From contig CP182352.1 in assembly GCA_048571215.1 (NCBI GenBank), positions 1,088,001 through 1,152,000 on the forward strand: a stretch of 64,000 nucleotides of DNA, in the 5' to 3' direction. Below, one piece after another: positions 24,101 through 41,562 of this stretch. The first letter of the stretch is position 1; each line of letters opens with the position of its first letter. A program made the translations under genes and the position numbers. The notes beneath the pieces were generated by a model, which did no database searches, was not told the DNA's origin, and saw only the letters and a program-made list of their open reading frames with translations. The stretch is from Halarcobacter sp. (lineage in GTDB: Bacteria > Campylobacterota > Campylobacteria > Campylobacterales > Arcobacteraceae).

Positions 24101-27100
24101 GTCAGATGTGCTAGAGATAGTAAATGATACAAATTCTAACTTTACAACAGCAAGTGATTATACAGTAACATTAAGTGATACAAGTGCAAGTGCAGCAGAT
24201 TTAAATGCAATAAATGCAGATACCACAGGCTTAGTAACAGCAACAAATGTAGCAAATATAACAAGTAGTAGCTTCGCAGATGTAAATACCTTGATAAGTA
24301 ATAAAGGAACAAGTGGAGATGCAATAAATGTAGATGGGAACTATAATGTAGTACTTTCAGATACATCAATAAGTGCGGCAAATGTAAAAGTAGTAAATGA
24401 TGATACAAGTGGAGCTATAGATATATCAGCAGCAACAACAATAACAAGCTCAAGTGTGTCAGATGTGTTAGAGATAGTAAATAATACAGGATCTAACTTT
24501 ACAACAGCAAGTAATTATGCAGTAACATTAAGTGATAGTTCATTATCAGCAGCAGATGTAAAAACAATTAATGATGATAATGGAACAGGAGCTATAGATA
24601 TATCAGCAGCAACAACAATAACAAGCTCAAGTGTGTCAGATGTGCTAGAGATAGTAAATGATACAAATTCTAACTTTACAACAGCAAGTGATTATACAGT
24701 AACATTAAGTGATACAAGTGCAAGTGCAGCAGATTTAAATGCAATAAATGCAGATACCACAGGCTTAGTAACAGCAACAAATGTAGCAAATATAACAAGT
24801 AGTAGCTTCGCAGATGTAAATACCTTGATAAGTAATAAAGGAACAAGTGGAGATGCAATAAATGTAGATGGGAACTATAATGTAGTACTTTCAGATACAT
24901 CAATAAGTGCGGCAAATGTAAAAGTAGTAAATGATGATACAAGTGGAGCTATAGATATATCAGCAGCAACAACAATAACAAGCTCAAGTGTATCAGATGT
25001 GTTAGAGATAGTAAATAATACAGGATCTAACTTTACAACAGCAAGTAATTATGCAGTAACATTAAGTGATAGTTCATTATCAGCAGCAGATGTAAAAACA
25101 ATTAATGATGATAATGGAACAGGAGCTATAGATATATCAGCAGCAACAACAATAACAAGCTCAAGTGTGTCAGATGTGTTAGAGATAGTAAATAATACAG
25201 GATCTAACTTTACAACAGCAAGTAATTATGCAGTAACATTAAGTGATAGTTCATTATCAGCAGCAGATGTAAAAACAATTAATGATGATAATGGAACAGG
25301 AGCTATAGATATATCAGCAGCAACAACAATAACAAGCTCAAGTGTGTCAGATGTGCTAGAGATAGTAAATGATACAAATTCTAACTTTACAACAGCAAGT
25401 GATTATACAGTAACATTAAGTGATACAAGTGCAAGTGCAGCAGATTTAAATGCAATAAATGCAGATACCACAGGCTTAGTAACAGCAACAAATGTAGCAA
25501 ATATAACAAGTAGTAGCTTCGCAGATGTAAATACCTTGATAAGTAATAAAGGAACAAGTGGAGATGCAATAAATGTAGATGGGAACTATAATGTAGTACT
25601 TTCAGATACATCAATAAGTGCGGCAAATGTAAAAGTAGTAAATGATGATACAAGTGGAGCTATAGATATATCAGCAGCAACAACAATAACAAGCTCAAGT
25701 GTGTCAGATGTGTTAGAAATAGTAAATAATACAGGATCTAACTTTACAACAGCAAGTAATTATGCAGTAACATTAAGTGATAGTTCATTATCAGCAGCAG
25801 ATGTAAAAACAATTAATGATGATAATGGAACAGGAGCTATAGATATATCAGCAGCAACAACAATAACAAGCTCAAGTGTGTCAGATGTGTTAGAGATAGT
25901 AAATAATACAGGATCTAACTTTACAACAGCAAGTGATTATACAGTAACATTAAGTGATAGTGCTAGTGCCTCTGAATTAAATAGTATTGCAGGAGATACA
26001 ACAGGTGTAGTAACAGCAACTTTAGATGCAAATACAACAATAAGTGATGCAACATTAACCTCTTTAGCTAATGTTGATGTTAATGATATAATAACTTTAA
26101 ATTCAACAGTAACAACAGCTGATGCAACTGCATTAAACGATTTAGATGCTTTGCTTGATACAAAAACATACTCAATTAGTGAAATTACAGAAGCTTATGA
26201 TACAGCAAACTTAACAACAGAGATAAATGATGCCTTGGTAATAGTACCAAACGCAAATGTGACAATTACAGGTGGTGAAATATCTGCATCAAATGCAAAT
26301 ACTATAGCAGACCAAACATCTGGTAAACTAAATGCTACTATTACAGCAGCAACAGCAGCAGTCTTAGCTGGAGCTCTTGTAAATGCAAGTGCTAGTGATG
26401 AATTAACTATAAGTGTGAATGATGATGCAAGTGCAACACAAGCTTCAAATTTAGTTACTTTAGATTCAAAAACATCAATAGCTGTAAATGCAAATGCAGT
26501 AACTTCTATTACAGGGACTTTAAGTGAATATAATAACCTTGTAAGTGCAGATGTAAATATAGACAACGATTATCTCTTAGAAATTAGTGATACTAATACT
26601 GCAAGTGATATTAATGCAATATTAAATAATACAAGTTCAGCAGTAACTGCAACAATTAGTTCAGATAGTGCTTCAAATCTTAAAACAAATCTTTCAAATG
26701 CTACAAGCTCAGATGCCTTAAATCTTACTATATCAGGGGCAAGTGCAAATGCATCTGATTTATTGGCACTTGATTTAAAAACTTCACAAACAATTGACGC
26801 ATCTAGTTTAACTAATATCAGTGGTTCTTTAGATAATTTAAATAGTATATATAATAGTGGAGATTTTAGTGGATTAGGAGATGAGAATTTATCTATAACA
26901 GATACAGGTAGTGTTACATCAACTCAATTAAATGATATATTAACAGAGACAAGTGGAACTATAACTTTAAGTGGGACAGGTTCATTACAAGTTTCAGTTG
27001 CAAATGGGGATAGTTTAGATTTAAGTGGAGTAACAAATAGTTTAAGTGGTAACTTAACTATAAATGATACAACAGGAAATGAAAATATCACAGGAACATC

Positions 27101-28017: not shown

Positions 28018-28869
28018 ATGGATAAAAACTTTAATAAATTAATAAAAGCAAGAAATGGCTATTGTCTATTTAATAAAAATGATAAATATATAGGTTATTC
28101 TCTCGAAAAATATGGTGAATTTTCCCACTTGGAAGTTGAACTTTTTAAACAAATTTGTAAAAAAGGAGATACTATCATTGAAGTTGGTGCAAATATTGGT
28201 GCTCATACTCAGTTTTTTTCAAATAGAGTAGGGCACAGTGGTAAAATACTTGCCTTTGAACCACAAAGGATAGTTTTTCAAACTCTTTGTGCAAATATAT
28301 CAATAAATTCTATGACAAATGTATATACCTATCATATGGCATTATCCAATGAAGAGGGTACAGCTTTGATTGCTCCAATTGATTACACAAAATTGGGAAA
28401 TTTTGGTGGTATTAGTATAGAAAATTCCAGAAAAGGTGAATCTGTACAACAAAAAACACTAGATGATTTTATTGAGCAAGTTGATAACTTAAAGTTAATA
28501 AAAGTAGATGTTGAAGGTATGGAAGAAAAAGTGTTAAAAGGTGCAAAAAAAATTATCAAAAAATATAAACCCTTTTTATATGTGGAAAATGATAGACAAG
28601 AAAAATCACAATCTTTAATAGAGTATATAAAGTCTTTAGATTATGAATTATATTGGCATATGCCAAAACTATATAACCCAAATAATTTTTATAAAAGTAG
28701 TGAAAATATTTTTGGAAATATAGTTTCAGTAAATATGATATGTATCCATAAAAGTTTAAAAGTAAATGTGGAAAAAATGATAAAAATTGAAGATAGTAAA
28801 TTTCATCCTATGAAGAAAGGTAAAAAAGAAAATAGTAATAAAAAAAATAGTGGAGAAACCAATGAATAA
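28018..28869 (+). CDS. FkbM-family SAM-dependent methyltransferase
   Basis: IIEVGANIGAHT, LAFEPQ and LIKVDVEGMEEKVLKGA motifs typical of FkbM/Methyltransf_21. Confidence 0.9.
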   Translation: MDKNFNKLIKARNGYCLFNKNDKYIGYSLEKYGEFSHLEVELFKQICKKGDTIIEVGANIGAHTQFFSNRVGHSGKILAFEPQRIVFQTLCANISINSMTNVYTYHMALSNEEGTALIAPIDYTKLGNFGGISIENSRKGESVQQKTLDDFIEQVDNLKLIKVDVEGMEEKVLKGAKKIIKKYKPFLYVENDRQEKSQSLIEYIKSLDYELYWHMPKLYNPNNFYKSSENIFGNIVSVNMICIHKSLKVNVEKMIKIEDSKFHPMKKGKKENSNKKNSGETNE

Positions 28870-30658
28870 ACAAGAAAATATAAAAAAACTATTAAATAAA
28901 GCATATGAAGATTATAAAAAAAATGATTTTGAAACTTCAAAACAAACATATTTAGATATCTTAATAGAGGATAAAAATAATAGCGAAGCTTTAGGAAATC
29001 TTGGAGTTATTTATAGAGCATTAGGAGATAATAATAAATCATATGAATACTATATAAAAGCGATAAATTCAAATCCAAAAAATATAATGGTTTATAACAA
29101 TCTAGGAAATCTTTTAAAAGATACTGGAAATTATAAAGCTGCATTAAAAGTATACTCTGATGCTATAAAGATTGAACCCAAAAACTATTTAATGTACAAC
29201 AATTTAGGAATGGTTTATGAAAAATTAAAAGATTATAACAAGGCTATACAAAGCTATAAAGAATCTGTGAGAATCAATCCAAATTATGATAAAGCAGTAA
29301 ACAATATAGGGGTAGTTTTATATAAACAAAAAAAATATAAAGAGTCTATTGAAATATTTAAAATAGCTTTAAAAATAAACCCAAAATATTATGAGTTATA
29401 CAGTAATATTGGGGCTTGTTATAATAAACTTAAAATGTATGATGAATCAATTGAGGCTTTAAATATTGCCATAGAAAAAAATCCAAAAAATGGGGGAGCA
29501 TACACAAACCTTGGAAATGTTTATAATAAACTTTTTGACTATAAAAAAGCTGCTAAGCTACATGAAAAATCGATAGAATTAGACCCAAATGGTTCAAATG
29601 CCTATAGCAATGTGGGAACTTCATACAAACACTTAGGACAAGTAAAAAAAGCTATTGATTCTTATAAAAAAGCCATAGAACTTGACCCAAATTTCGTAAA
29701 TGCTCACTTTGATTTGGCAACTATGTATTTAGGAAAAGGTGATTATAAAAATGGATTTAGAGAATATGAGTGGAGATTTAAAAAAGAGGAGATGATATCT
29801 CATATAGTAAACAATAAAGATATTTTTTCAAAGCCTATGTTTACAGGGAAAGATGAGATTAAGGATAAAACAATACTTATCCACTCCGAGCAAGGTTTTG
29901 GAGATTCTATTCAATTTATAAGATTTCTAAAGCCATTTAAAGAAAAATTTAAATGTAAAATTGCAGTTAAATGTAGAGATGAGTTAAAGAAATTATTTAA
30001 GTCTATTGATGAAATTGATGTTTTAACAAATAGAAGTGAAGCTACACCAGAATTTGATTATCATTTACCAATAATGAGTATGCCATATATTTTAGAGATA
30101 AATTCAGCGAAAGATCTTATCACTGAGACGCCTTATTTAAATATTCCAAAAAAGAATATTTTTGATATTAAAAAAGAGAAAGGGAAGATTAATGTAGGTA
30201 TTTGTTGGTCAGCATCTGTTACTTCTGAAAGTTATGAGGAGAGAGTTTTAGAATTAGAAAGATTTTTACCAATAATTAATAATAATAAGATAAATGTCTA
30301 TTCACTTCAATTAGGTCCAGATAAAGAAGCTATAAAAAAGCTTGGATTAGAAGATAAAGTTATTGATATCACTGATAAATTAACTGATTTTTCAAAAACA
30401 GCAGATTTAGTTCAAGAGTTGGACTTAGTAGTTAGTTCTGATACTTCTGTTGTTCATCTTTGTGGTGCTATGAATATTCCAGTTTGGGTAATGGTACCTA
30501 AAATTCCAGATTGGAGATGGGGAAATAAAGGAGAAACATCACCTTGGTATAAAAGTGCAAAACTTTTTAGACAAAAAAGCGCTAGAGTCTGGGATAGTGT
30601 ATTTCAGTCTATTTATGATAAACTATTTTCTAATTTTAAAATCAAAATAGATAGGTAG
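28862..30658 (+). CDS. TPR-repeat glycosyltransferase (N-terminal TPRs + GT-B/GT9-like domain)
   Basis: About nine TPRs (AYTNLGNVYNKLFDYKKAAKLHEKSIELDP) followed by HSEQGFGDSIQFIRF, DLVVSSDTSVVHLCGAM, DWRW and SPWY motifs. ATG 28862 (GGAGA upstream) preferred over GTG 28850. Confidence 0.85.
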   Translation: MNKQENIKKLLNKAYEDYKKNDFETSKQTYLDILIEDKNNSEALGNLGVIYRALGDNNKSYEYYIKAINSNPKNIMVYNNLGNLLKDTGNYKAALKVYSDAIKIEPKNYLMYNNLGMVYEKLKDYNKAIQSYKESVRINPNYDKAVNNIGVVLYKQKKYKESIEIFKIALKINPKYYELYSNIGACYNKLKMYDESIEALNIAIEKNPKNGGAYTNLGNVYNKLFDYKKAAKLHEKSIELDPNGSNAYSNVGTSYKHLGQVKKAIDSYKKAIELDPNFVNAHFDLATMYLGKGDYKNGFREYEWRFKKEEMISHIVNNKDIFSKPMFTGKDEIKDKTILIHSEQGFGDSIQFIRFLKPFKEKFKCKIAVKCRDELKKLFKSIDEIDVLTNRSEATPEFDYHLPIMSMPYILEINSAKDLITETPYLNIPKKNIFDIKKEKGKINVGICWSASVTSESYEERVLELERFLPIINNNKINVYSLQLGPDKEAIKKLGLEDKVIDITDKLTDFSKTADLVQELDLVVSSDTSVVHLCGAMNIPVWVMVPKIPDWRWGNKGETSPWYKSAKLFRQKSARVWDSVFQSIYDKLFSNFKIKIDR

Positions 30659-30662
30659 TTAT

Positions 30663-32765
30663 TTGGACGAAATTTCACAAAATGAAGAGTATAGAGAGCA
30701 ACAACCGTTGTTATACTCTTTAAAGTATATTTTAGATTTTTATTTTGGAGAGATATCAATTGATACTATTTTAAATCTCTCTGCAACTTCAGTTAAGGGT
30801 TTTACATCTGAAATAGCAATAGATGTTACAAATGAAGTGGGACTAAATGCTGTAGAAAAAACTATCAATGCTCTTGATATCCCCACACACTTTTACCCTT
30901 GTATTATTTTTGATAAAAATGATGCCCCTTTTGTACTTATAAAAAAAGATAATAAAGTATTAATCTATGACCCTATCAAAAATGAAAAAATAGAAGAAAA
31001 TGTAAGTTTTTTAAAACATTTCAAAAAAGCAATTTTGATATTTAGGGACCCAAATAAAGAGAAACTTTTGGAACAAACTAGAACAAGAGATTGGTTTTGG
31101 ACTCCTGTTAAAGCCTTTTGGCGTTCATATATTGAAATTGGTCTTTTAACTTTTTTTATCAATATTTTTGCCCTTGCAGTTCCCCTTTTTACAATGAGTG
31201 TATATGATAGGGTAGTTCCAAATAATGCAACAGAAACCCTATTTGTATTGGCTTCAGGGGTTATTATTATTTTGATATTTGATGTTTATTTTAAAAGTGT
31301 AAGAAATCATATTATAGAAAATGTTGGTAAAAAGCTTGGGGTTTATTTAGAAGAAGAGCTTATGAAACGAATGCTTTGTATCAAGTCAGAGTTCGATAAT
31401 ATGTTGGTTGGTTCAAAGGCAAATCTATTTAGAGAATTAAATCAAATAAAAGAGTTTTTTGCTACAAGATCTGTTTTACAAGTAATTGATTTACCTTTTT
31501 TCTTTATAGCTATTTTTGTTATTTTTCTTATATCTCCAGCAGTTGCTGCTGTACCTTTTGGGATTGCTATTTTTATTATTATTTTTAATATTATTATGCA
31601 AGTACCCATCTCAAATCTAAGTAAAAAAAATGTTGAAAATATTCAATCAAAAAATAGTTATTTGGTTGAAACAATCCAAGGAAGTGAAAGTATAAAGTTA
31701 TCAAATGCAGCTTCAACTAAACTATTCAATTGGAGAAACTTAATTGCAAGCACAGATGCTGTAAGTAGAAAGATTCAATCATTAAATGTATTTTCAATGA
31801 ATCTATCACAAACTGTTGTTCAATTTGTAACTATGGCAGTTATAGTTGTAGGTGTATTTGAAATAGCAAATAAAAACTTAACTGTTGGTGGTCTTATTGC
31901 TGTTACCATCCTTTCTAGTCGTGCTATGGTGCCAGTTATACAAACCTCAATGATGGTTATTCGTTTCAAAGAGATAAAGGAGTCATTAAACAATATAAAT
32001 GAGTTTTGGCACCTACCTTTAGAAAATGATAAAAACATTGAAATAGGAGTTGGTAAATTAAAGGGTGAAATAGAGTTTTCAAAGGTGAATTTCTTTTATA
32101 AAAATAGTAAATACCCATCTTTACAAGAGTGTAACTTAAAAATAAATCCTGGTGAAAAAGTTGGTATTATTGGACAAACTGGGGCTGGTAAAACTACTTT
32201 CTTAAGACTTTTAACCGGACTAGATAGTGTTAGTAGTGGAAGTATATATTTAGATGGACATGAGATATCAACTCTTCATCCTGTTGAGATAAGACAAAAT
32301 ATTGGAGTTATGCCCCAAGAACCATTTTTATTTTCAGGATCTTTAAAAGAGAATATAGAGCTGTCAAACCCAATAAGTAAAGACAAGATGATGTCTTTGA
32401 TTAAATTAACTGGTTTAGATGATTTAGTTAAAAAAACAGGGCAGGGTGATGCTTTACAAGTGGGGGAAAGAGGAAGTAATTTATCTGTAGGACAAAGGCA
32501 TTTAGTAGCTTTAGCGAGGGCTATATTAAATGATCCATCAATTATTGTATTAGATGAACCTACAACAGGTCTTGATGTTGGATTAGAAAAAACACTTATA
32601 ACACATCTTAAAAATCTATTAGAAGAAAAAACACTTCTAGTGATAACCCATAGGTTTGCAGCTTTGGAGTTAGTTGATAGGGTTATAGTATTAAACAATG
32701 GGAAAATAGTTGCAGATGGACCAAAAGATAAAGTCTTAGCTGCATTGCAACAAAAGGGTAAGTAA
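30663..32765 (+). CDS. Type I secretion ABC transporter/permease, LapB/LssB-like, with an inactive C39-like N-terminal domain
   Basis: FINIFALAVPLFTMSVYDRVVPNNATETL, Walker A GQTGAGKTT, signature LSVGQR, Walker B IIVLDEPT. Confidence 0.93.
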   Translation: MDEISQNEEYREQQPLLYSLKYILDFYFGEISIDTILNLSATSVKGFTSEIAIDVTNEVGLNAVEKTINALDIPTHFYPCIIFDKNDAPFVLIKKDNKVLIYDPIKNEKIEENVSFLKHFKKAILIFRDPNKEKLLEQTRTRDWFWTPVKAFWRSYIEIGLLTFFINIFALAVPLFTMSVYDRVVPNNATETLFVLASGVIIILIFDVYFKSVRNHIIENVGKKLGVYLEEELMKRMLCIKSEFDNMLVGSKANLFRELNQIKEFFATRSVLQVIDLPFFFIAIFVIFLISPAVAAVPFGIAIFIIIFNIIMQVPISNLSKKNVENIQSKNSYLVETIQGSESIKLSNAASTKLFNWRNLIASTDAVSRKIQSLNVFSMNLSQTVVQFVTMAVIVVGVFEIANKNLTVGGLIAVTILSSRAMVPVIQTSMMVIRFKEIKESLNNINEFWHLPLENDKNIEIGVGKLKGEIEFSKVNFFYKNSKYPSLQECNLKINPGEKVGIIGQTGAGKTTFLRLLTGLDSVSSGSIYLDGHEISTLHPVEIRQNIGVMPQEPFLFSGSLKENIELSNPISKDKMMSLIKLTGLDDLVKKTGQGDALQVGERGSNLSVGQRHLVALARAILNDPSIIVLDEPTTGLDVGLEKTLITHLKNLLEEKTLLVITHRFAALELVDRVIVLNNGKIVADGPKDKVLAALQQKGK

Positions 32766-32769
32766 AACA

Positions 32770-34044
32770 ATGAATAATCTATTATTTGAAGAGAAAAAAT
32801 GGAACTATTATGTATCTGTAGTGCCAATCATGCTTTTTTTTATTGCTTTTATTACCTGGGCATCTTTTAGTCAAGTTGATGAAGTTGTAAGGGGTACTGG
32901 TAAGATAGTACCTTCAGGACAAACAAAAATTTTACAAAATTTAGAGGGTGGAATTATCTCTGATATTAAAGTAAAAGAGGGTGATACTGTATCAAAAGGG
33001 CAGATTATTTATACCCTTTCAAATGAGTTTTTTAGAGCAGATTCTAGAACAAAAAAATTAGACTTATTGGCTTTCCAAGCAGCAGAACAGAGATTAGAAG
33101 CCTCAATTAATGAAAAAGAAACTATAGATTTTTCAAAAGATTTAGTTGAAAAAATTCCAGAGATTATAAATAATGAAAAAAGAATATTTTTTGAAGATTT
33201 AAAAAATAGAAATACACAAATTGCAATTGCACAAGATCAATTAAGACAAAAAAAATATAAACTAAAAGAAGCTGAAACAAAGTTTGAGAATTTAAGTTTA
33301 GAGTTAAACTTAGCTCAAACAAATATGAAGATATTGGAGTCTTTATATAAGAAAAAAGTTGTATCAAAAAAAGATTATATTACTGAACTTTCAAAAAAAC
33401 AAAACATTGTTACTAAATTATCTGAAACTCGTAATAGTATTCCTATTATAAAAGAAGAGATATCTGAAGCAAAAAAAAGAATAGATACTGTTAAATCTGA
33501 AATCAAATCAAAATATCTTCAAAAATACTCAAGTTTAAAAGCTGAAATAAATAAATTAATAGAGAGAAACAAAGCAGATACTGATAGGGAACTACGTAAA
33601 GATGTAGTATCTCCCGTAAAAGGGATAATAAACAAGTTATATTTTTACACTATTGGGGGTATTGTAAAATCAGGAGATAAATTAGCTGAGATTACACCTT
33701 TGGATGATTCTTTGACAATAGAGGCACGGGTTTCTACAAGTAATAGAGCACAAATTTGGGCTGGTCAAAATGTATCCGTAGAAATTACTGCTTATGATTT
33801 CTCAAAATATGGTCTTTTAAATGGTACTTTGATCTCTATTTCACCTGATTCTTTTGAAGATAGAACTGGAAATATCTATTATCTTGTAAAAGTAAAAGTT
33901 GATACAAATCAATTTGCTCCTGATTTACCTATTATGCCAGGGATGATAGCGAATATTAATATTTTAACTGGTAAAAAAACTATACTTCAATATATTATTA
34001 AACCATTAAAAGATATTAGTAGAAATGCATTAGGTGAACAATAA
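32770..34044 (+). CDS. HlyD-family T1SS membrane fusion protein
   Basis: WASFSQVDEVVRGTGKIVPSGQTKILQNLEGGII, coiled coil, ITAYDFSKYG, IMPGM, ILTGKKTILQYIIKP. Confidence 0.94.
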   Translation: MNNLLFEEKKWNYYVSVVPIMLFFIAFITWASFSQVDEVVRGTGKIVPSGQTKILQNLEGGIISDIKVKEGDTVSKGQIIYTLSNEFFRADSRTKKLDLLAFQAAEQRLEASINEKETIDFSKDLVEKIPEIINNEKRIFFEDLKNRNTQIAIAQDQLRQKKYKLKEAETKFENLSLELNLAQTNMKILESLYKKKVVSKKDYITELSKKQNIVTKLSETRNSIPIIKEEISEAKKRIDTVKSEIKSKYLQKYSSLKAEINKLIERNKADTDRELRKDVVSPVKGIINKLYFYTIGGIVKSGDKLAEITPLDDSLTIEARVSTSNRAQIWAGQNVSVEITAYDFSKYGLLNGTLISISPDSFEDRTGNIYYLVKVKVDTNQFAPDLPIMPGMIANINILTGKKTILQYIIKPLKDISRNALGEQ

Positions 34045-34156: not shown

Positions 34157-35110
34157 ATGTTTAGCTTCTTCAAGTTTCTACAAAAATTTATAAAAGATTT
34201 AAAGTCAAATAAGGGATTATGGTTTACAATTTTAGCAGTTGTTTCTGTGTTGGGTATATTCTTATCTCTTTACCTTTTAACACATATGACTAAAAGTGTA
34301 TCAAAAGATGTATATTATAATATGTCTTCAACATATGTAAAAAATTATAAGAATAGAGTTACTAAAAAAGAGCAAAATTTTAAAAAGATTTTGTTAACAG
34401 TAAAAGCTGATGATAATTTTATATCAAATATAGCAAATAGTAACTTAGTAGAGGTGGGAAATTATATCTCTAGGTTCAATGATGAGTACAAAACAAATGG
34501 ATTTAATAGTTATCAACTAAGTTTCTATCCTATTTTTAATCAAGTTAACCAATACAGAACAACTATTAATTCGGCAATAAACGCAAAGAATAAAATTTTT
34601 GGTGTAGAGGTTTTACAAGATGGTGTATATTATGTTTATATAGAACCACTTATAAGAGATGATAAATTAATTGGAGTTTTAGAACTAAAAGAAGAGTTAC
34701 ACGATTTCAAAGTTGAATATACAAAAGATGATTTAATTTTTCTATTCCTTATAGAAGAGAGAATGCTAAATAAACTTTCAATAAAAGCAAGAAATGGTAA
34801 ATATAGAGAAGTTGTTGAAACTTTATATGTAAATGAAGAGAGATACGATGGACAATTTTTTGCAAAAATCATAGATGGTGGAAGAGAAAACTATAAAATG
34901 ATGATGGACAATGGTTATTCTGTAGATGATACTTATTTTAGAGCTGTTCAAAAAGTTGCTGATATGGAGGGTAATATTATTGGTTTAGTTGTAATTGGAG
35001 AACCTGTTGAGGGAAGTGGAGCCTTTGTAAACATTGTTGATAATATGACAAAAACAGTTACAACTGTTGCTTTAGGTTTAGTTATTTCAATTTTACTATT
35101 TATGTTTTAA
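34157..35110 (+). CDS. Two-TM membrane protein with a periplasmic Cache-like domain and no cytoplasmic output domain
   Basis: TM1 (LWFTILAVVSVLGIFLSLYLL), ~250-aa loop with Cache-like YVYIEPLIRDDKLIGVLEL and DMEGNIIGLVVIG, TM2 at the extreme C-terminus. Confidence 0.65.
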   Translation: MFSFFKFLQKFIKDLKSNKGLWFTILAVVSVLGIFLSLYLLTHMTKSVSKDVYYNMSSTYVKNYKNRVTKKEQNFKKILLTVKADDNFISNIANSNLVEVGNYISRFNDEYKTNGFNSYQLSFYPIFNQVNQYRTTINSAINAKNKIFGVEVLQDGVYYVYIEPLIRDDKLIGVLELKEELHDFKVEYTKDDLIFLFLIEERMLNKLSIKARNGKYREVVETLYVNEERYDGQFFAKIIDGGRENYKMMMDNGYSVDDTYFRAVQKVADMEGNIIGLVVIGEPVEGSGAFVNIVDNMTKTVTTVALGLVISILLFMF

Positions 35111-35119
35111 GGCACTTAG

Positions 35120-36268
35120 ATGAGACGTATTAAGATATTAAAAATATATTTTATATTTATACTATTTGTAGTTTTTTTAATTTTTTCAAATATTCAAGTA
35201 ATAAAAAGCTTCTTTATGGCGACATTAACATTTAATGTTGCAATTTTAACAATATTTTCTATTGGATTATTGATACTTTATCAAGCAGCTATAAAACTTA
35301 CAATGCTTTCAGGTACATTTGGGATTTTGGCTTATAAAAAAGGTAAAGCCTTGGAGTTTTATCTTCAAGGGATTACAGGGGTTTTTCCTGCAACTATAGC
35401 CCATATGTTTAACAAAAGAGCAAAAAAAGGTGTTTTGTATTTTACTCAAGATGAAGCAAAAAATGTAAGTGAATGGTTAGGTGAACAGTTTTTTAATCAA
35501 AAGGGTTATACAAACTTTTTTGTTGGTACCTCACTTATGCTTGGGCTTTTTGGTACATTTACTGGTCTTTTGGTTGCTATTGATGAGATGGGTGCTATTA
35601 TTTTATCATTTGGTGGAGACGATATAGATATTGGTGAAGTTATGACTAAGTTCTCTGGACCATTAGGTGGTATGTCTATTGGATTTGCTTCATCTTTATT
35701 TGGGGTAGCTTCAGCAGTTATTTTAAATGTAATGCAATATATTCTTACTAGAAATCAAGCAGGATTTTTACAAGATGTAGAGGATTGGATGAAAGGTAAA
35801 ATCATCGACTCTCAATCATCTGAAACCTTAGAAGAAGCAAAAGAACAATTAGGATTAATAGTAAGTTCTCAAGGTTCAGGATCTGGTGGTGGAGGAAATA
35901 TGCAAGGTTTCCTAGATGTATTTATTGATACTATGGGAGATTTTACAGATAAGTTAGAAAAATCTAACAAATCAACAGAAAAAGTTTATGATCTGATAAT
36001 AGAAAGTTTCTCAAATGACAATAGTTTTAAAGAAAAAGAGTCTGTACTCTTGGAAAATATTGTAACAAGTTTAAGGGAATCAAATGTAAATCAATTTTCA
36101 AATGCTTCTATGATGGAGGAATCTTTACAAGAGATTTCAAATGTAATTTTATCTGAACATAGAAGTGTTAAAAAGAGTTTAGCATTGCAAGAGGAAAATA
36201 ATAAACTTTTATTACAGTTAGTAAACTCTTTAAATAGTAGACTAGATAAGTTAGAATCAAATAAGTGA
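35120..36268 (+). CDS. MotA/TolQ/ExbB-family ion-channel subunit, SiiB-like, with a helical cytoplasmic tail
   Basis: SLMLGLFGTFTGL and PLGGMSIGFASSLFGVASAVIL are the two conserved TM motifs of this family. Confidence 0.85.
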   Translation: MRRIKILKIYFIFILFVVFLIFSNIQVIKSFFMATLTFNVAILTIFSIGLLILYQAAIKLTMLSGTFGILAYKKGKALEFYLQGITGVFPATIAHMFNKRAKKGVLYFTQDEAKNVSEWLGEQFFNQKGYTNFFVGTSLMLGLFGTFTGLLVAIDEMGAIILSFGGDDIDIGEVMTKFSGPLGGMSIGFASSLFGVASAVILNVMQYILTRNQAGFLQDVEDWMKGKIIDSQSSETLEEAKEQLGLIVSSQGSGSGGGGNMQGFLDVFIDTMGDFTDKLEKSNKSTEKVYDLIIESFSNDNSFKEKESVLLENIVTSLRESNVNQFSNASMMEESLQEISNVILSEHRSVKKSLALQEENNKLLLQLVNSLNSRLDKLESNK

Positions 36269-36280
36269 TAGGTATCTTTA

Positions 36281-37045
36281 ATGGCAAATAGATGTGAAGA
36301 TGAGTTTAACCCTTGGCCTTCATTTGTTGATATCTTTTCATCGGTTATTCTTGTAATGCTTCTTTTCTTACTGGTTGTACTTGTAAATTTGGGGTTTTAT
36401 GCACAATTTAAATATAAAGTATCATATACAGGTTCAATAGCTACAGATGATTTGATAGTAAATGATAATCCTAGTGAGGGAACTGAAAAATTGTTTCAAA
36501 AACAGCAAGCACAACCAGTGACCCAAATAGAAACAAAAACAAAAGAACAATCACAAGCTGTATCTCAAATGCAAAGTGAGATTATTAGATTAAGAAAAAT
36601 GATTAAAGAGAGAACAGTAAAAGCAAAAGAGAAACACGAATCAGAAATTGAAGCTGGTGGGATTGATGTAAAAGATAGAAAAGATGATGACAATAAATCT
36701 AAACAAACTATTATTAATAGTGAAGATTACTTTATTATTACCTTTAAAGGAAATGAGATATTTTTTGATAATGAGATAACTAAAAAATTAAAAGGTTTTT
36801 TAAATGATGCAAAAGAAAAATATAAAAAATATAAAATCTCAATTACAGCTGCTGATGTTCAAGGGCAAGCTAGTGCAACAGTTGCAAAACAGATCTCGTT
36901 AGCTAGAACAATTGGTGCAAGAAATCTTATTCGAAAATTTGGTTATGAGAAAAAAGATGTAAGAGTTGATTTATTATCTAGCACAGACGTAAAAGAAAAT
37001 ATAAACAAAAAAAATGGATATTTAGTTATTAGGATAAAAAGATAG
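36281..37045 (+). CDS. MotB/SiiA-like single-TM subunit with conserved Asp and an OmpA-like C-terminal domain
   Basis: EDEFNPWPSFVDIFS precedes a TM helix and closely resembles the Salmonella SiiA N-terminus as I recall it; ISLARTIGARNLI resembles the OmpA/MotB LSxxRA motif. Confidence 0.82.
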   Translation: MANRCEDEFNPWPSFVDIFSSVILVMLLFLLVVLVNLGFYAQFKYKVSYTGSIATDDLIVNDNPSEGTEKLFQKQQAQPVTQIETKTKEQSQAVSQMQSEIIRLRKMIKERTVKAKEKHESEIEAGGIDVKDRKDDDNKSKQTIINSEDYFIITFKGNEIFFDNEITKKLKGFLNDAKEKYKKYKISITAADVQGQASATVAKQISLARTIGARNLIRKFGYEKKDVRVDLLSSTDVKENINKKNGYLVIRIKR

Positions 37046-40000
37046 TGATAAGCAGATTTATAAAATATATATTATTTACTTTTTTAATTGTTTCCTCAAC
37101 TATGGCATTAAATGATGAAAATAATCTTAATTTAATAGCGCCTAAAAAACTCAATCAGCTTGAAGGAGAAAAAGATTCTTTAAAAAAAATAGAAAGAACA
37201 TATGTATCAGAAACACCTTCTGTAAGAACTGCAAAAATAAAAAAAGCAAATCAAGACCAAGCTTTAAATACTAAACTTTATACAAAAGTAAAACTTATAG
37301 ATGTTGTACTAGAAACACTATCAAGAAGTGATACTTTAAAATCATCAAGAGAAAATGTAATTCAGTATGAATTAAAAGTTAAAAATGCAATTGCTGATTA
37401 TTATCCTACTGTAAATTTTAGTTATGAATATGGTCGAACTAAAACAAAACCTGATAGTAGTGGAAATAATCATTTTAGATTTTATACTGATGATAACTTT
37501 GAATTTATATTAAGACAAAACTTATATTCAGGTTTTGCAACTAATTATAATATTAAAAGTATTGGAAAAAAACTTGAAGTAGCTAGAAATCAATACAGAA
37601 TTACCCTTGATGAAGAGATTAAAAAAGCTGTAAAGGCTTATTTTGATGTTGTATTTGCAAATCGTTCAGTAAAAGTCAATGAACGAAATATGAAAAAACT
37701 TAATAGAATTTTGAAAATTGTTACAACAAAATATGATAATGGTGGTGCATCATTAGGGGATATGACCTCAATAAAAGCTAGCGTTGCAAATTCAATGACA
37801 AAATTAGTAAAAATCAAATCTAAATTTATTGAGTCATTGAGATATTATGAGTATATTGCAGGTGTTGATTTTCAAAAAACCTTACCATATGAGATGAATT
37901 TTGATATCTCTTTAAAAGAGTTTCAAGAGTTATATGAACATGCCTTAGAAAAAAATAGAAATTTGATTAATTATTATGAGAGTATAGAAGCTGAAAAGTA
38001 TGAACAAAAAAAGAGAAGAGCAGCTTTTGAACCGAAACTTGATTTTGAATTATCTTATGGGGAGATTTATCAAGGTGATGGTATAGCTAAAACTGAAACA
38101 GATGTAAGTGGAAAAGTAAAACTTACATATAATCTATTTAATGGTGGAAAAGATAAAAATAAAGTCCTAGAATCAAATAGTAAGGTTAGAAATCTAAACT
38201 ATAAACTTGAAGAAGAGAAGAAAAAAATCAAATGGAACCTTTCTAAGATACACACTTCTATGCAAAGTATTAATGAAGCCTTAAAAAGTACTATAGAAGA
38301 GATTAAAGCCTCTAGAAAGATGGTTTCAGCATATTGGGATGCTTTTAAGCTTGGAGAGCAAGATTTACAAACACTACTGCAAGGACAAAGACAATTAAAC
38401 TCAGCAGAAACAGAACTTGTTGGTTTTGAAAAAAGTCAAATTATCAACTTCTTTAATACTTTAGAGTTAACAGGAGAACTATCTTCATTTTTCAATGTTG
38501 ATCCAGGAAATCCTAAATTTATAGATTTTTCAAAAAGTGATTATAAAAAAACAGTTATAGCAAAAGATGGACAATTATTATCTTTAACTGGCGATATTGC
38601 AAAAGATAAACTTGAAAAAGAAAAAGAGATTAAAAAACAAGAAGAAAAACCAAAAGAGATTGTAGCTACAAAAATCCCTTTAGATGAAAAACTTAGTAAA
38701 TATGTAGAAGAGTTTAAGAGTTTTGATGATAATAGTTTTACAATAGAGATTGGTGACTTTGATTCGATTTTTGATGCCTTTGATTTCATGATAAAAAATA
38801 AAATAGATGATAACTCTTTTACCTATGAAGTTGTTGATAAATATAATATAAAAACAAAAATTGCCCACAATAATTTTAAAACAAAAGAGGAAGCAAATAA
38901 CTATATAAAACTTTTGGAAGAGAAAAAGTTAGGAAAAGAGTATAAGGTAAGGTTAGTAAAAGATATTAAAGCTTTATATGATAGTTATATGAAAGGTTTA
39001 GCAATAAAACCTCCTAAACCAAAAGTTAAAACTAAAATAAAAATTGTTGAAAAGCTAATTCAAGCACCAGTTAAAAAAGAGTTTCAACCTGATGAACAGT
39101 TTAAAAATAAGTTTTTATCTTCACCTGATGATTTTTATACTATAAATGTATCATCTTTTACAGATTTGAAAACTTTAGAGAAATTTGTTTTAAAAAATGA
39201 GATCAAAGATAATTCATTTTTCTTTAGATATGGCAATAATGGACAACTTATTAAGTTAGTATATGGGGTTTATGAAAATTATACTAATAATATAGAAGAT
39301 CAAATAAATAAGTTGATTTTAGAAAATAAAAATATTTTTCCACTAGTGGAAAAGCTTGGACCTGTAAAAGAGCTATATAATGAAAATATTCAATTTAATA
39401 AAAAAGATGAAAAAGAAGATAAAGAAGACAAAGCTATCCATGAGAACAAATCTAAAGAGATAAAAGAAAATAAAAAAGATGATGAAGTTTTAACTTTAAC
39501 AAAAAGAGTCTCATTAGATGATATAAATAAAGAGAAAAAAGAAAAAATAGAAAAAGCAAAAAAAGAGATTGTTAAAATCTTAGATAAGAATAAAGCTTCA
39601 AATGATAATCAAAAAAATAAAAAAGAGAATATAACAAAAGAAGAAGAGGCAAATTTAGATAGTGTAGTACAAAAAGAAGTATTACAAAAATCTGATGAAA
39701 AACTTGAAAAAGACAAACCTAAAGAGGATATTAAAAAAACTTTAGAAAAAGAAGTAAAAAAAGAGATTATTGATGCACCAAAAAAAGAAGTTAAAAAAGA
39801 GTTAAGCTTAGAAAAAAACTTTTTAAATAGCTTCATAGAGGCACCAAGAAGTTCATATACTATTAATTTAGCTTCATTTCCTACAAAAGAATTAGCAAAA
39901 GAGTATATATCAAATAACAATATTCAAGAAAACAGTTTATTTGTAAGAGCTGATAATGGTGTTATTAAAGTTTTAAATGGGATATATAATACAAGAGAAA

Positions 40001-41562
40001 AGGCAAATAAAGCGATAACTTCATTACCTGAATCAATACAAAGAAATAATCCTTATCTACAAAAAATATTTAGAGTTCAAGATTTGATTAAAGCTAATAG
40101 TTCAAACATTGAAGCACTTCAATTGACAAATAAAGTTGATTTAGAAGAGGAAAAACTTGCAAAAGTAGAAGTAGAAAAAAAAGCTAAACTTGAACTTGAA
40201 AGAAAAGCAAAACTTGATGCAGAAAAACTTGCAAAAGTAGAAGCACAGAAAGAAGCTGAAGATGAAGCTAAAGAAAAAGCAAAACTAGAGGCACAAAAGT
40301 TAGAAAAAGAAAGATTAGCAAAATTAGAAGCTAAAGAAAAAGAAAAAGAAGAAGCTCAAAGAAAAGCAAAACTTGAAGCAGAAAAATTTGCAAAATTGGA
40401 AGCACAGAAAAAAACTGAAGAGGAAGTTAAAGAAAAAGCAAAAGAAGAGGCTCAAAGAAAAGCTAAACTTGAAGCAGAAAAACTTGCAAAATTAGAAGCA
40501 CAGAAAAAAGCTGAAGAGGAAGCTAAAGAAAAAGAAAAATTAGAAGCACAAAAGTTAGAAAAAGAAAGACTTGCTAAAGAAGAAGCAGATAAAAAAGATA
40601 AATTAGCAAAAGAAGAAGCTGAAAGAAAAGCTAAACTTCTTGATGAAAAAGCAGCGCAAAAGGCTAAAGAAGAGGCTTATAAAAAAGCTCAACTTGAAGT
40701 TGAAAGATTAAGAAAAGAGCGACTTGAAAAAGAAGAGATACAAAGAAAAGCTCATGCAGAAGCTATAAAGCAAGCAAGATTAAAAGCACAAATGAAAGCA
40801 AAACTTGAAGCAAAAAAAGCAGAAATTGAAAGAATAGGAAAAGAAAAAGCAGCAAAAAAAGCAAAAGAGATTGCTGAAAGAAAAGCTAAACTCGAAGCTG
40901 AGCAAAAAGCAAAAGAGATTGCTGAAAGAAAAGCTAAACTTGAAGCTGAGCAAAAAGCAAAAGAAGAAGCAGAGAAAAAAGCTAAACTCGAAGCTGAGCA
41001 AAAAGCAAAAGAAGCAGCAGAAAAAAAAGCTAAAGAAGCACAAAAGTTAGAAAAAGAAAGATTGGCAAAACTTGAAGCTAAAAGAAAAGTAAAAAGCATA
41101 GAGAACAAAAAAGAGGATATAGAAAAAGATGCAAGTTTAGAGATAAGTGGATTAAAAAATGAAAAAACTAGCACTTTAAATCCTAATAAAACTACTGTAA
41201 ATAAGCTAAAATTATCATCTAGTCCAATTGAAGAGATAGATTTTGGAGCAAATGGAACAGAAAAAAAACAGAAGGTAATCCCTTATAACAAAAGACAAGA
41301 TAATTTTGCTAATAAATTTGCAAATACATCTAAAAATAAATATACATTAAAAATCATCACATTAAAACCTAGTGAAGTTAAATGGTTTGAAAATGTGCGT
41401 GGATTGTCTCCTACTCATGTTGTAGTTAAAAATAAAAAAAGAGCGACTATCTATTATGGTATCTATGATACTATTGAAGAAGCAAAAAAAGATATAGTAA
41501 ATCTTCATCCTTTAATCTATGAGTCAAATCCTCCTGTTGTAAAAATAGGAACTGTAAAATGA
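37045..41562 (+). CDS. TolC-family outer-membrane channel fused to four SPOR-like domains and a TolA-like K/A/E-rich helical segment (1505 aa)
   Basis: Signal peptide; efflux-protein motifs (ADYYPTVNFSY, LRQNLYSGF, LTYNLFNGG, YWDAFKLGEQDLQTLLQGQ) to ~38500; SPOR-like units at ~38725, 39121, 39841 and 41330 (e.g. YTINLASF...GIYNTREKANKAITSLP); KAKLEAE repeats ~40140-41095. Confidence 0.88.
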   Translation: MISRFIKYILFTFLIVSSTMALNDENNLNLIAPKKLNQLEGEKDSLKKIERTYVSETPSVRTAKIKKANQDQALNTKLYTKVKLIDVVLETLSRSDTLKSSRENVIQYELKVKNAIADYYPTVNFSYEYGRTKTKPDSSGNNHFRFYTDDNFEFILRQNLYSGFATNYNIKSIGKKLEVARNQYRITLDEEIKKAVKAYFDVVFANRSVKVNERNMKKLNRILKIVTTKYDNGGASLGDMTSIKASVANSMTKLVKIKSKFIESLRYYEYIAGVDFQKTLPYEMNFDISLKEFQELYEHALEKNRNLINYYESIEAEKYEQKKRRAAFEPKLDFELSYGEIYQGDGIAKTETDVSGKVKLTYNLFNGGKDKNKVLESNSKVRNLNYKLEEEKKKIKWNLSKIHTSMQSINEALKSTIEEIKASRKMVSAYWDAFKLGEQDLQTLLQGQRQLNSAETELVGFEKSQIINFFNTLELTGELSSFFNVDPGNPKFIDFSKSDYKKTVIAKDGQLLSLTGDIAKDKLEKEKEIKKQEEKPKEIVATKIPLDEKLSKYVEEFKSFDDNSFTIEIGDFDSIFDAFDFMIKNKIDDNSFTYEVVDKYNIKTKIAHNNFKTKEEANNYIKLLEEKKLGKEYKVRLVKDIKALYDSYMKGLAIKPPKPKVKTKIKIVEKLIQAPVKKEFQPDEQFKNKFLSSPDDFYTINVSSFTDLKTLEKFVLKNEIKDNSFFFRYGNNGQLIKLVYGVYENYTNNIEDQINKLILENKNIFPLVEKLGPVKELYNENIQFNKKDEKEDKEDKAIHENKSKEIKENKKDDEVLTLTKRVSLDDINKEKKEKIEKAKKEIVKILDKNKASNDNQKNKKENITKEEEANLDSVVQKEVLQKSDEKLEKDKPKEDIKKTLEKEVKKEIIDAPKKEVKKELSLEKNFLNSFIEAPRSSYTINLASFPTKELAKEYISNNNIQENSLFVRADNGVIKVLNGIYNTREKANKAITSLPESIQRNNPYLQKIFRVQDLIKANSSNIEALQLTNKVDLEEEKLAKVEVEKKAKLELERKAKLDAEKLAKVEAQKEAEDEAKEKAKLEAQKLEKERLAKLEAKEKEKEEAQRKAKLEAEKFAKLEAQKKTEEEVKEKAKEEAQRKAKLEAEKLAKLEAQKKAEEEAKEKEKLEAQKLEKERLAKEEADKKDKLAKEEAERKAKLLDEKAAQKAKEEAYKKAQLEVERLRKERLEKEEIQRKAHAEAIKQARLKAQMKAKLEAKKAEIERIGKEKAAKKAKEIAERKAKLEAEQKAKEIAERKAKLEAEQKAKEEAEKKAKLEAEQKAKEAAEKKAKEAQKLEKERLAKLEAKRKVKSIENKKEDIEKDASLEISGLKNEKTSTLNPNKTTVNKLKLSSSPIEEIDFGANGTEKKQKVIPYNKRQDNFANKFANTSKNKYTLKIITLKPSEVKWFENVRGLSPTHVVVKNKKRATIYYGIYDTIEEAKKDIVNLHPLIYESNPPVVKIGTVK
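40864..41040 (+). repeat. 48-bp (16-aa) tandem repeat, ~3.5 copies, in the TolA-like stalk
   Basis: KEIAERKAKLEAEQKA KEIAERKAKLEAEQKA KEEAEKKAKLEAEQKA KEAAEKKAK. Confidence 0.8.

What the first reader, a model, noticed from the sequence alone, without database searches (positions are those of the whole stretch)
34157..35110. Orphan Cache-like sensor with no signalling domain, 9 bp upstream of the motor pair
Seen: the protein ends at the last residue of TM2 (..LGLVISILLFMF*), with no HAMP, MCP or kinase remnant before the next ATG. Inference: it can only signal laterally in the membrane, plausibly gating the MotA/MotB-like channel or the LapD-like protein. I recall a reported link between SiiAB and a chemoreceptor in Salmonella, which should be verified.
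Basis: partly seen in the sequence, partly recalled or inferred. Interest (0 to 1): 0.7.

Follow-up and report, generated by a model that had tools for sequence, protein, structure and literature searches.

The report
Sensor-derived subunit of adhesin secretion motor
A receptor sensor domain that stops at the membrane, with no signalling part, is conserved in Arcobacter-group bacteria and their relatives beside a proton motor like Salmonella's SiiAB and a giant-adhesin exporter, and it likely works as a built-in membrane subunit of that motor that would help decide whether the adhesin is held or released.

Summary
Observation confirmed. The 317-aa ORF has two membrane helices around a dCache_3 domain and stops at the end of TM2, 9 nt before the next gene. 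This is no local truncation: 119 of the 120 listed orthologues end at the same residue, and the family is one branch apart from dCache_3 chemoreceptors. The downstream pair is SiiB/SiiA-like (hhalign 96-98%; best fold match SiiA; Asp17 aligns with SiiA Asp13). Cache and SiiB-like genes co-occur in 63 of 63 positive genomes among 161 Arcobacteraceae and 12 of 12 among 301 class genomes. The LapD-like gene was found in only 6 of those 12. Conservation is inverted: TM2 is 55% identical against 15% in long receptors at matched periplasmic identity. A pocket motif in 43 of 50 long relatives survives in 1 of 35 family members. Best reading (inferred): a chemoreceptor-derived membrane accessory subunit of a SiiAB-type motor, a hard-wired counterpart of Salmonella CheM, probably not binding the ancestral ligand. 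Physical contact is not shown. Ten literature searches found no description. New variant of a known kind.

The parts
34157..35110 (+). Stand-alone two-TM dCache_3 protein, 317 aa, no cytoplasmic output domain
34157..34213 (+). N-terminal amphipathic helix (residues 1-19), predicted on the cytoplasmic face; F2 and K19 invariant in 34 diverse members; longer than the 6-13 residues most long relatives have before TM1
34217..34285 (+). TM1 (residues 21-43), conserved on one face (F23, L26, S30, G33, I34, S37)
34289..35011 (+). Periplasmic double Cache domain (residues 45-285), fast-evolving
34520..34558 (+). Residues 122-134: the place where chemoreceptor relatives carry an S-F-x-R-x-W...G-D-D-L loop that is shortened or absent in this family; close orthologues conserve a different polar patch here
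35051..35107 (+). TM2 (residues 299-317), the last 19 residues, conserved on most helix faces; most conserved part of the protein
35108..35119 (+). TAA stop and 9-nt spacer to the next ATG; spacer 7-17 nt in 74 of 76 paired loci, in all three frames, so no conserved readthrough
35120..36268 (+). SiiB-like (MotA/ExbB/ZorA-type) subunit, 382 aa, four hydrophobic segments and a cytoplasmic tail of variable length
36281..37045 (+). SiiA-like (MotB-type) subunit, 254 aa; invariant Asp17 (36329-36331) aligns with SiiA Asp13; C-terminal OmpA-like domain with invariant Arg209
37045..41562 (+). TolC-family outer membrane protein with SPOR domain(s) and a long charged region, 1505 aa
41559..43751 (+). 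LapD/CsrD-like GGDEF-EAL membrane protein (below the LapD cut-off); present in only part of the loci
30663..32765 (+). Type I secretion ABC transporter (TIGR03375, above cut-off)
32770..34044 (+). HlyD-family type I secretion adaptor (TIGR01843, above cut-off)
6090..28001 (+). Giant RTX-repeat protein, 7303 aa, the presumed secreted adhesin; preceded by an overlapping RTX ORF in another frame that ends at 6136
28018..30658 (+). FkbM-family methyltransferase and TPR protein, recurrent in related loci (presumed adhesin modifiers; that role is inferred)

Best explanation
This is a conserved stand-alone two-helix dCache_3 membrane protein that likely docks through its membrane helices on the SiiAB-type proton motor encoded right behind it and would act as a built-in accessory subunit coupling that motor to holding or releasing the giant RTX adhesin. 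Shown: the architecture, the family, its link to a SiiB/SiiA-like pair in a type I secretion locus, inverted conservation, and loss of the ancestral pocket motif. Inferred: an ancestral dCache_3 chemoreceptor lost everything after TM2 and gained an N-terminal amphipathic helix; TM2, TM1 and that helix became a fixed interface with the motor; the periplasmic domain now more likely serves as a protein-contact or spacer module (as LuxQ's does, recalled) than as a receptor for the ancestral small ligand. By analogy with Salmonella, where CheM contacts SiiAB without the chemotaxis relay, it would set motor activity or assembly and so adhesin retention.
For: Co-occurrence with the SiiB-like gene: same 63 of 161 Arcobacteraceae genomes and same 12 of 301 class genomes in five families. 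Directly upstream of it in 61 of 63 (the other 2 are split over contigs) and 8 of 12, while the upstream neighbour changes between HlyD, a divergent ABC gene, TolC and unrelated genes. TM2 identity 0.55 (259 pairs) against 0.15 (612 pairs) in long homologues at 20-30% periplasmic identity. In 76 paired loci TM2 (0.77) is as conserved as the motor's TM3/TM4 (0.74/0.76), the periplasm 0.33. TM2 is conserved on most faces. R-x-W..G-D motif in 43 of 50 long homologues, 1 of 35 family representatives, 0 of 76 paired members. One branch, 100/99 support. Pair is SiiAB-like. Precedent: CheM-SiiAB preprint.
Against: Co-occurrence cannot separate the motor from the rest of the locus: T1SS, TolC or RTX genes were seen beside the Cache gene in all 12 class-level genomes. 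In 2 of 12 the Cache gene lies several genes away from the motor pair and directly before the RTX gene; in 2 more an opposite-strand ORF lies between. TM conservation could reflect self-association. The long homologues are not one orthologous group and their TM2s may be aligned out of register, which would lower the control value. Part of the 76 loci were found with TM2 and N-terminal patterns, so one search is biased upward; avoids those patterns. Close orthologues conserve a polar patch (Y124, N128, Q129, N131, Q132, Y133, R134, N138) that could be a new ligand site. Salmonella SPI-4 has six genes, siiA-F, so a SiiAB motor can work without such a locus-encoded subunit.
Confidence: 0.42

Rival explanations
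1. It is a true small-molecule sensor that gates the SiiAB-type channel: ligand binding moves TM2 like a piston and opens or closes the motor.
For: Whole double Cache fold retained. Core residues G149, E151, P164, G173 kept. A polar patch including R134 is invariant or nearly so in 54 close orthologues. Aspartate acting through CheM shifts SiiE from secreted to retained in Salmonella.
Against: The motif conserved in chemoreceptor relatives is lost (1 of 35 against 43 of 50). No polar pocket residue unique to the family is conserved at 70% or more across it; what is conserved there is mostly Gly, Pro, aromatic and shared core residues. Periplasmic identity between representatives averages 0.21.
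Confidence: 0.21
2. Its partner is the secretion conduit (ABC transporter, HlyD adaptor, TolC) or the N-terminus of the adhesin, not the motor; it would be an inner-membrane anchor or retention factor.
For: Secretion or RTX genes accompany it in all 12 class-level genomes; in G131 and G191 it sits directly before the RTX gene, away from the motor pair. CheM also gave a two-hybrid signal with SiiD. A ligand-free Cache domain suits protein contact; LuxQ is tied for the best fold match.
Against: Adjacency to the SiiB-like gene survives rearrangements that move or invert ABC/HlyD/TolC.
Confidence: 0.2
3. TM2 mimics the last helix of ExbB/TolQ proteins and enters the motor ring as a pseudo-subunit.
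For: 5 of 23 divergent members hit PF01618 positions about 79-109 with TM2, E 7e-4 to 0.01. An ExbB/TolQ last-helix profile puts the window's TM2 at rank 56-71 of about 3,200 membrane sites of the genome, in the same Gly register; 6-10 of 34 family members reach the top 1%, against 0 of 50 long-receptor TM2s.
Against: All hits are below the Pfam cut-off and unrelated membrane families hit as well or better (DUF624 at 1e-5). About 55-70 other sites rank higher. hhalign finds nothing against the locus's own SiiB-like protein or SiiB. A TM2 profile does not retrieve ExbB/TolQ from the genome's top 25 or from the PDB.
Confidence: 0.06
4. It is the input module of the LapD-like GGDEF-EAL protein.
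For: Same gene run in Arcobacteraceae loci.
Against: The LapD-like orthologue was found in 6 of 12 genomes that carry the Cache gene; it was not found in G054, G057, G131, G191, G249, G256, all 99% complete, where the TM2 core is retained. It has its own periplasmic region. LapG-family genes lie elsewhere in the genome.
Confidence: 0.06
5. It is one half of a split receptor and feeds an unlinked sensor-less chemoreceptor or kinase, or it is a decayed chemoreceptor.
For: Nearest long relatives are chemoreceptors: 18 of 18 tested carry MCPsignal. Other output-less dCache_3 forms lie beside kinase-like genes in the class.
Against: Strict linkage to this locus, a fixed stop position and strong TM conservation do not fit decay. 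No adjacent sensor-less receptor recurs in the loci read.
Confidence: 0.04

Closest known systems
Salmonella SPI-4 SiiAB-SiiCDF-SiiE with the chemoreceptor CheM
   Same: SiiA-like and SiiB-like pair in a locus with ABC, HlyD, TolC and a giant Ca-binding-type substrate; a chemoreceptor-type membrane protein is implicated without the chemotaxis relay (preprint).
   Different: CheM is a complete Tar orthologue encoded elsewhere and still does chemotaxis. Here a dedicated, output-less dCache_3 protein is in the locus. Gene order is siiB-like then siiA-like, the substrate has RTX repeats rather than SiiE's BIg domains, and TolC carries SPOR domains.
dCache_3 (PF14827) chemoreceptors
   Same: Homologous TM1-dCache_3-TM2 module.
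   Different: No HAMP or MCP domain; extra N-terminal amphipathic helix; TM helices conserved instead of variable; distal-module motif lost.
SMP_2 (PF10144) and stand-alone sCache_heme proteins
   Same: [quoted passage not shown]
   Different: Different Cache families; no link to a motor or T1SS in the passages read; no CxxCH motif here (the protein has no Cys).
Eukaryotic alpha2-delta / CACHD1 channel subunits
   Same: Cache-domain proteins that work as auxiliary subunits of an ion channel (search listing and abstract starts).
   Different: Analogy only: dCache_1 plus other domains on a calcium channel; no homology claimed beyond the Cache superfamily.
Zorya ZorAB
   Same: Weak ZorA/ZorB profile hits; best PDB sequence hit of the SiiB-like profile is 8vvn, a type I ZorAB entry, E 0.21; long cytoplasmic tails in some members.
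   Different: The MotB-type domain matches SiiA much better (Z 13.5 against 6.6-7.8 for three ZorAB entries); the context is a secretion locus.

Membership tests
dCache_3 (PF14827) domain family | Double Cache fold between two TM helices | tested here: met
   AF2 model and fold searches; hydropathy
dCache_3 (PF14827) domain family | Match to the Pfam profile | tested here: inconclusive
   Window protein 13.1 bits, cut-off 25.7; 40 of 76 orthologues hit at E<=0.01; 5 of 23 divergent members pass the cut-off
Chemoreceptor / sensor kinase / diguanylate cyclase with Cache input | Cytoplasmic HAMP or output domain after TM2 | tested here: not met
   Stop at the end of TM2 in 119 of 120 listed homologues; no fusion among 240 SiiB-like proteins
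Ligand-binding Cache sensor | Conserved pocket motif of its nearest chemoreceptor relatives (R-x-W..G-D; its role as the pocket is inferred) | tested here: not met
   1 of 35 and 0 of 76 against 43 of 50
Ligand-binding Cache sensor | Binds a small molecule | not testable with these tools
   Needs thermal shift or ITC
SiiAB-type T1SS auxiliary motor (neighbouring pair) | SiiA-like: TM helix with the critical Asp | tested here: met
   Asp17 invariant in 19 sequences, aligned to SiiA Asp13, hhalign 97.9%
SiiAB-type T1SS auxiliary motor (neighbouring pair) | SiiA-like: OmpA-like peptidoglycan-binding domain | tested here: met
   Top match 6qvp, Z 13.5, rmsd 2.1, 98 aligned, next Z 11.5; top five Foldseek rows are 6qvp
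SiiAB-type T1SS auxiliary motor (neighbouring pair) | SiiB-like MotA/ExbB-type pore helices | tested here: met
   hhalign 96.3%, 40% identity over 68 columns; 97.1% over 101 columns
SiiAB-type T1SS auxiliary motor (neighbouring pair) | Encoded with ABC, adaptor, TolC and a giant substrate | tested here: met
SiiAB-type T1SS auxiliary motor (neighbouring pair) | Proton translocation and control of adhesin retention | not testable with these tools
   Shown only for Salmonella
Zorya | ZorAB with ZorC/D/E-type effector genes | tested here: inconclusive
   Weak ZorA/ZorB hits only; the flanking genes were identified as T1SS parts but were not scanned against PADLOC
LapD/LapG adhesin control | LapD plus a linked LapG protease | tested here: not met
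   LapD model 113.7 bits against cut-off 1020; PF06035 genes lie outside the locus in G000

The most novel reading that the evidence does not exclude
This is a bacterial Cache-domain auxiliary subunit of a 5:2 proton motor, a functional parallel of alpha2-delta on calcium channels: a chemoreceptor cut at TM2 and fixed as a third subunit of SiiAB-type motors across Campylobacterota, gating proton flow and adhesin retention through a membrane helix that resembles the motor family's own last helix.
Probability: 0.27. Interest if true: 0.85.

Novelty: new variant of a known kind. Interest (0 to 1): 0.63.

Why it matters
How SiiAB uses proton motive force to control adhesin retention and release is stated as unresolved in a 2025 review (PMC12607715), and the CheM link rests on a preprint. 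A SiiAB-type system in five families of Campylobacterales, with its own dedicated receptor-derived membrane protein, gives a compact three-gene module that can be purified and solved, in environmental bacteria. [quoted passage not shown]

Tried and rejected
Complex prediction of two SiiB-like chains (1-230), SiiA-like 1-60 and the Cache protein: no verdict, score 0.00, controls not run; not used as evidence either way. Inter-protein mutual information on 76 pairs (Neff 38): top pairs join periplasmic with cytoplasmic positions, read as noise. Readthrough or fusion with the SiiB-like gene: in frame in this window but 35/20/21 over the three frames in 76 loci, and no Cache domain in 240 SiiB-like proteins up to 782 aa; rejected. 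Local truncation or pseudogene: rejected. Expression: one RNA run held part of the region; the listed contigs did not cover the Cache gene and 165 pieces were not shown, so inconclusive. Promoter scan: 18 sites against 10.9 +/- 3.4 in shuffles, no terminator; uninformative. PDB sequence searches with the Cache and SiiA-like profiles found nothing significant. A phylum-level search re-sampled genomes of the class set and added no new member. The C-terminal count failed through a faulty pattern and was redone. Three look-ups of earlier scan findings returned nothing. ESM Atlas: nearest clusters are the family itself and other Cache proteins.

Full report
Observation. The ORF at 34157-35110 encodes 317 aa and stops at the last residue of its second hydrophobic segment; the next ATG follows after 9 nt. 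Pfam and NCBIfam find no HAMP or output domain. An AF2 model from 54 orthologues (pLDDT 83.7) matches double Cache sensor domains by Foldseek (TlpA, TlpC, Tlp3) and VIA-align (KinD, LuxQ, DctB tied at Z about 11). 40 of 76 orthologues hit dCache_3 at E<=0.01, though the window protein is below the cut-off.

It is a family, not a truncation. The first search gave 502 hits among proteins of 174-555 aa; of the 120 listed, 116 are 314-318 aa and 119 end in L/I-F-M-F. Named hits are Arcobacteraceae, the closest Halarcobacter at 78%. In the HMMER search of 1.84 billion representatives (150 of 287 hits listed) all hits better than E 1e-19 are at most 376 aa; long proteins start at E 3.5e-19, and 18 of 18 long ones tested are dCache_3 chemoreceptors. 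On a tree of periplasmic regions, 35 stand-alone proteins form one side of a branch (100/99) against 50 long and 4 one-TM relatives; the root is not known. The spacer to the next gene falls in all three frames and no Cache domain was found in 240 SiiB-like proteins.

The neighbours are SiiB- and SiiA-like. The 36281 product's model (pLDDT 68.8) has SiiA's peptidoglycan-binding domain as best match of 48,161 chains (Z 13.5, rmsd 2.1, 98 aligned; next 11.5) and by Foldseek. A tblastn of a plasmid collection hit Salmonella siiA with its N-terminus (E 5); with that record hhalign gives 97.9% for SiiA, Asp17 on Asp13, and 96-97% for the 35120 product against SiiB. Asp13 is needed for proton translocation in SiiAB (10.1101/641415, abstract and passages). 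The locus also encodes an ABC transporter, HlyD adaptor, TolC-SPOR protein and giant RTX ORFs.

What travels with what. In 301 class genomes 36 matched the Cache profile; 12 had the short form matching from residue 1 (one split over two contigs), the other 24 had only long receptors, one-TM forms or weak matches. The SiiB-like profile matched 12 of 301, the same 12, in five families; none in the two largest families (0 of 90, 0 of 124). In 161 Arcobacteraceae genomes I counted as orthologues the matches at E 1.1e-49 or better, all in short frames: 63 genomes, identical to the 63 with the SiiB-like gene; 124 weaker matches were not listed, so a fragment could be missed. The genes are adjacent in 61 of 63, split over contigs in 2. 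At class level 8 of 12 are adjacent, 2 have a 666-672 nt gap with an opposite-strand ORF, and in 2 the Cache gene lies several genes downstream, directly before the RTX gene. The LapD-like orthologue was found in 6 of the 12. Kin are not independent, and the whole locus is inherited together, so co-occurrence ties the gene to the locus; only adjacency points to the motor.

Inverted conservation. Among 34 full-length representatives mean identity is 0.52 in TM2, 0.46 in the N-terminal helix, 0.40 in TM1 and 0.21 in the periplasm; among 50 long homologues it is 0.16 in both TMs and 0.31 in the periplasm. At 20-30% periplasmic identity TM2 is 0.55 against 0.15. In 76 paired loci TM2 equals the motor's TM3/TM4 in conservation (biased, since 80 metagenome loci were found with TM2 and N-terminal patterns). 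TM1 is conserved on one face, TM2 on most faces, as expected of a helix packed against protein (inference). The control is imperfect: the long homologues are not one orthologous group.

The sensor looks degenerate. Long relatives conserve H-x-H, S-F-x-R-x-W and G-D-D-L-x-x-x-R in the distal module; the family has deleted or replaced this stretch. The R-x-W..G-D pattern is in 43 of 50 long proteins, 1 of 35 representatives and 0 of 76 paired members. That this is the ligand pocket is inferred: a central Arg in the distal module binds formate in related Cache_3-type domains (10.1101/2024.05.17.594639, passages; I did not align to those proteins), and a like motif in CitA/DcuS is recalled. Against this reading, close orthologues keep their own polar patch at residues 124-138.

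A weak lead. TM2 of 5 of 23 divergent members hits the last helix of PF01618 below cut-off, and an ExbB/TolQ helix profile ranks the window's TM2 in the top 2% of the genome's membrane sites. Profile comparisons and reverse searches were negative, so mimicry stays a low-odds rival.

Mechanism. With no cytoplasmic part, a fixed C-terminus, conserved membrane helices and a place directly before the SiiB-like gene, the protein most likely docks on the motor in the membrane (inferred; contact with the motor about 0.69 over three readings, with the conduit or adhesin about 0.2). In Salmonella, CheM interacts with SiiA and SiiB by mass spectrometry, two-hybrid and co-IP, and aspartate shifts SiiE from secreted to retained without the chemotaxis relay (10.1101/2021.05.14.443827, preprint; parts 1-2 of 5 and passages). 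The Campylobacterota protein would be a dedicated version of that arrangement, more likely coupling or assembling the motor than reading the ancestral ligand.

Prior art. Ten full-text searches found no description of this protein or of SiiAB-type motors in Campylobacterota; two searches returned no paper, and none of the 25 of 101 papers listed contains 'Arcobacter'. The library lacks most subscription papers, including Wille 2014 (seen only as a citation). An A. butzleri preprint mentions a T1SS cluster with a 2517-aa RTX agglutinin (10.1101/775932, passages); its supplements were not seen, so I cannot tell whether it is this locus. Output-less Cache families are known (SMP_2, PMC4822843 section 9 and passages; sCache_heme, passages). 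PMC12204202 lists SiiAB among 5:2 motors and has no occurrence of 'Cache' (passages); PMC11890865 only cites SiiA; PMC12607715 calls the mechanism unclear (passages); 10.64898/2026.04.10.717710 (passages) added nothing. An annotated Arcobacter plasmid carries the locus with all three genes as hypothetical proteins.

Verdict. Real, conserved and, in the papers searched, undescribed: a SiiAB-type secretion locus with a chemoreceptor-derived, output-less membrane protein. New variant of a known kind; interest 0.63.

Noticed in passing
window 2-6136 and 6090-28001 (G000:C1:1080889-1116001): Two RTX-repeat ORFs of 4415 and 7303 aa overlap by 47 nt in different frames; possibly one very large adhesin gene interrupted there, or an assembly error.
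   Followed up: partly
window 37045-41562: TolC-family protein with SPOR domain(s) and a long Lys/Glu/Ala-rich region; length varies from about 460 to 1505 aa among loci. A TolA-like tether fused to TolC (label recalled) could be what the motor pulls on.
   Followed up: no
window 35120-36268 and relatives (L040, L042, L043; P0390-P0509): The SiiB-like cytoplasmic tail varies from about 150 to 550 residues (proteins of 366-786 aa), recalling ZorA's tail.
   Followed up: partly
L246 (CP146529.1, 121-kb Arcobacter plasmid): The whole locus lies on a plasmid beside IS3 transposases, with ABC and LapD-like genes annotated in two pieces; consistent with the patchy distribution within genera.
   Followed up: partly
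L032, L033, L034, L036-L038: A second output-less dCache_3 group (278-292 aa, apparently one N-terminal TM) forms its own branch inside the chemoreceptor side of the tree; in 5 of these 6 loci it faces a 372-375-aa kinase-like gene on the opposite strand (label from sequence look, not scanned).
   Followed up: partly
window 28018-30658; L003, L008, L246: FkbM methyltransferase, TPR protein (C-terminal part read as glycosyltransferase-like, recalled) and in some loci a SapC-family gene sit between the RTX gene and the ABC transporter; FkbM and TPR are fused in L003.
   Followed up: no
L013, L053, L054, L172, L183: A 274-276-aa ORF recurs next to HlyD or between HlyD and the Cache gene in several loci; not identified.
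   Followed up: no
G000:C1:2295741-2297990: Two LapG-family (PF06035) genes lie next to a paralogue of the LapD-like gene, a separate Lap-type module.
   Followed up: partly
G000:C1 (whole genome): The genome has several other giant ORFs: 12400, 6788, 4978 and 4092 aa.
   Followed up: no
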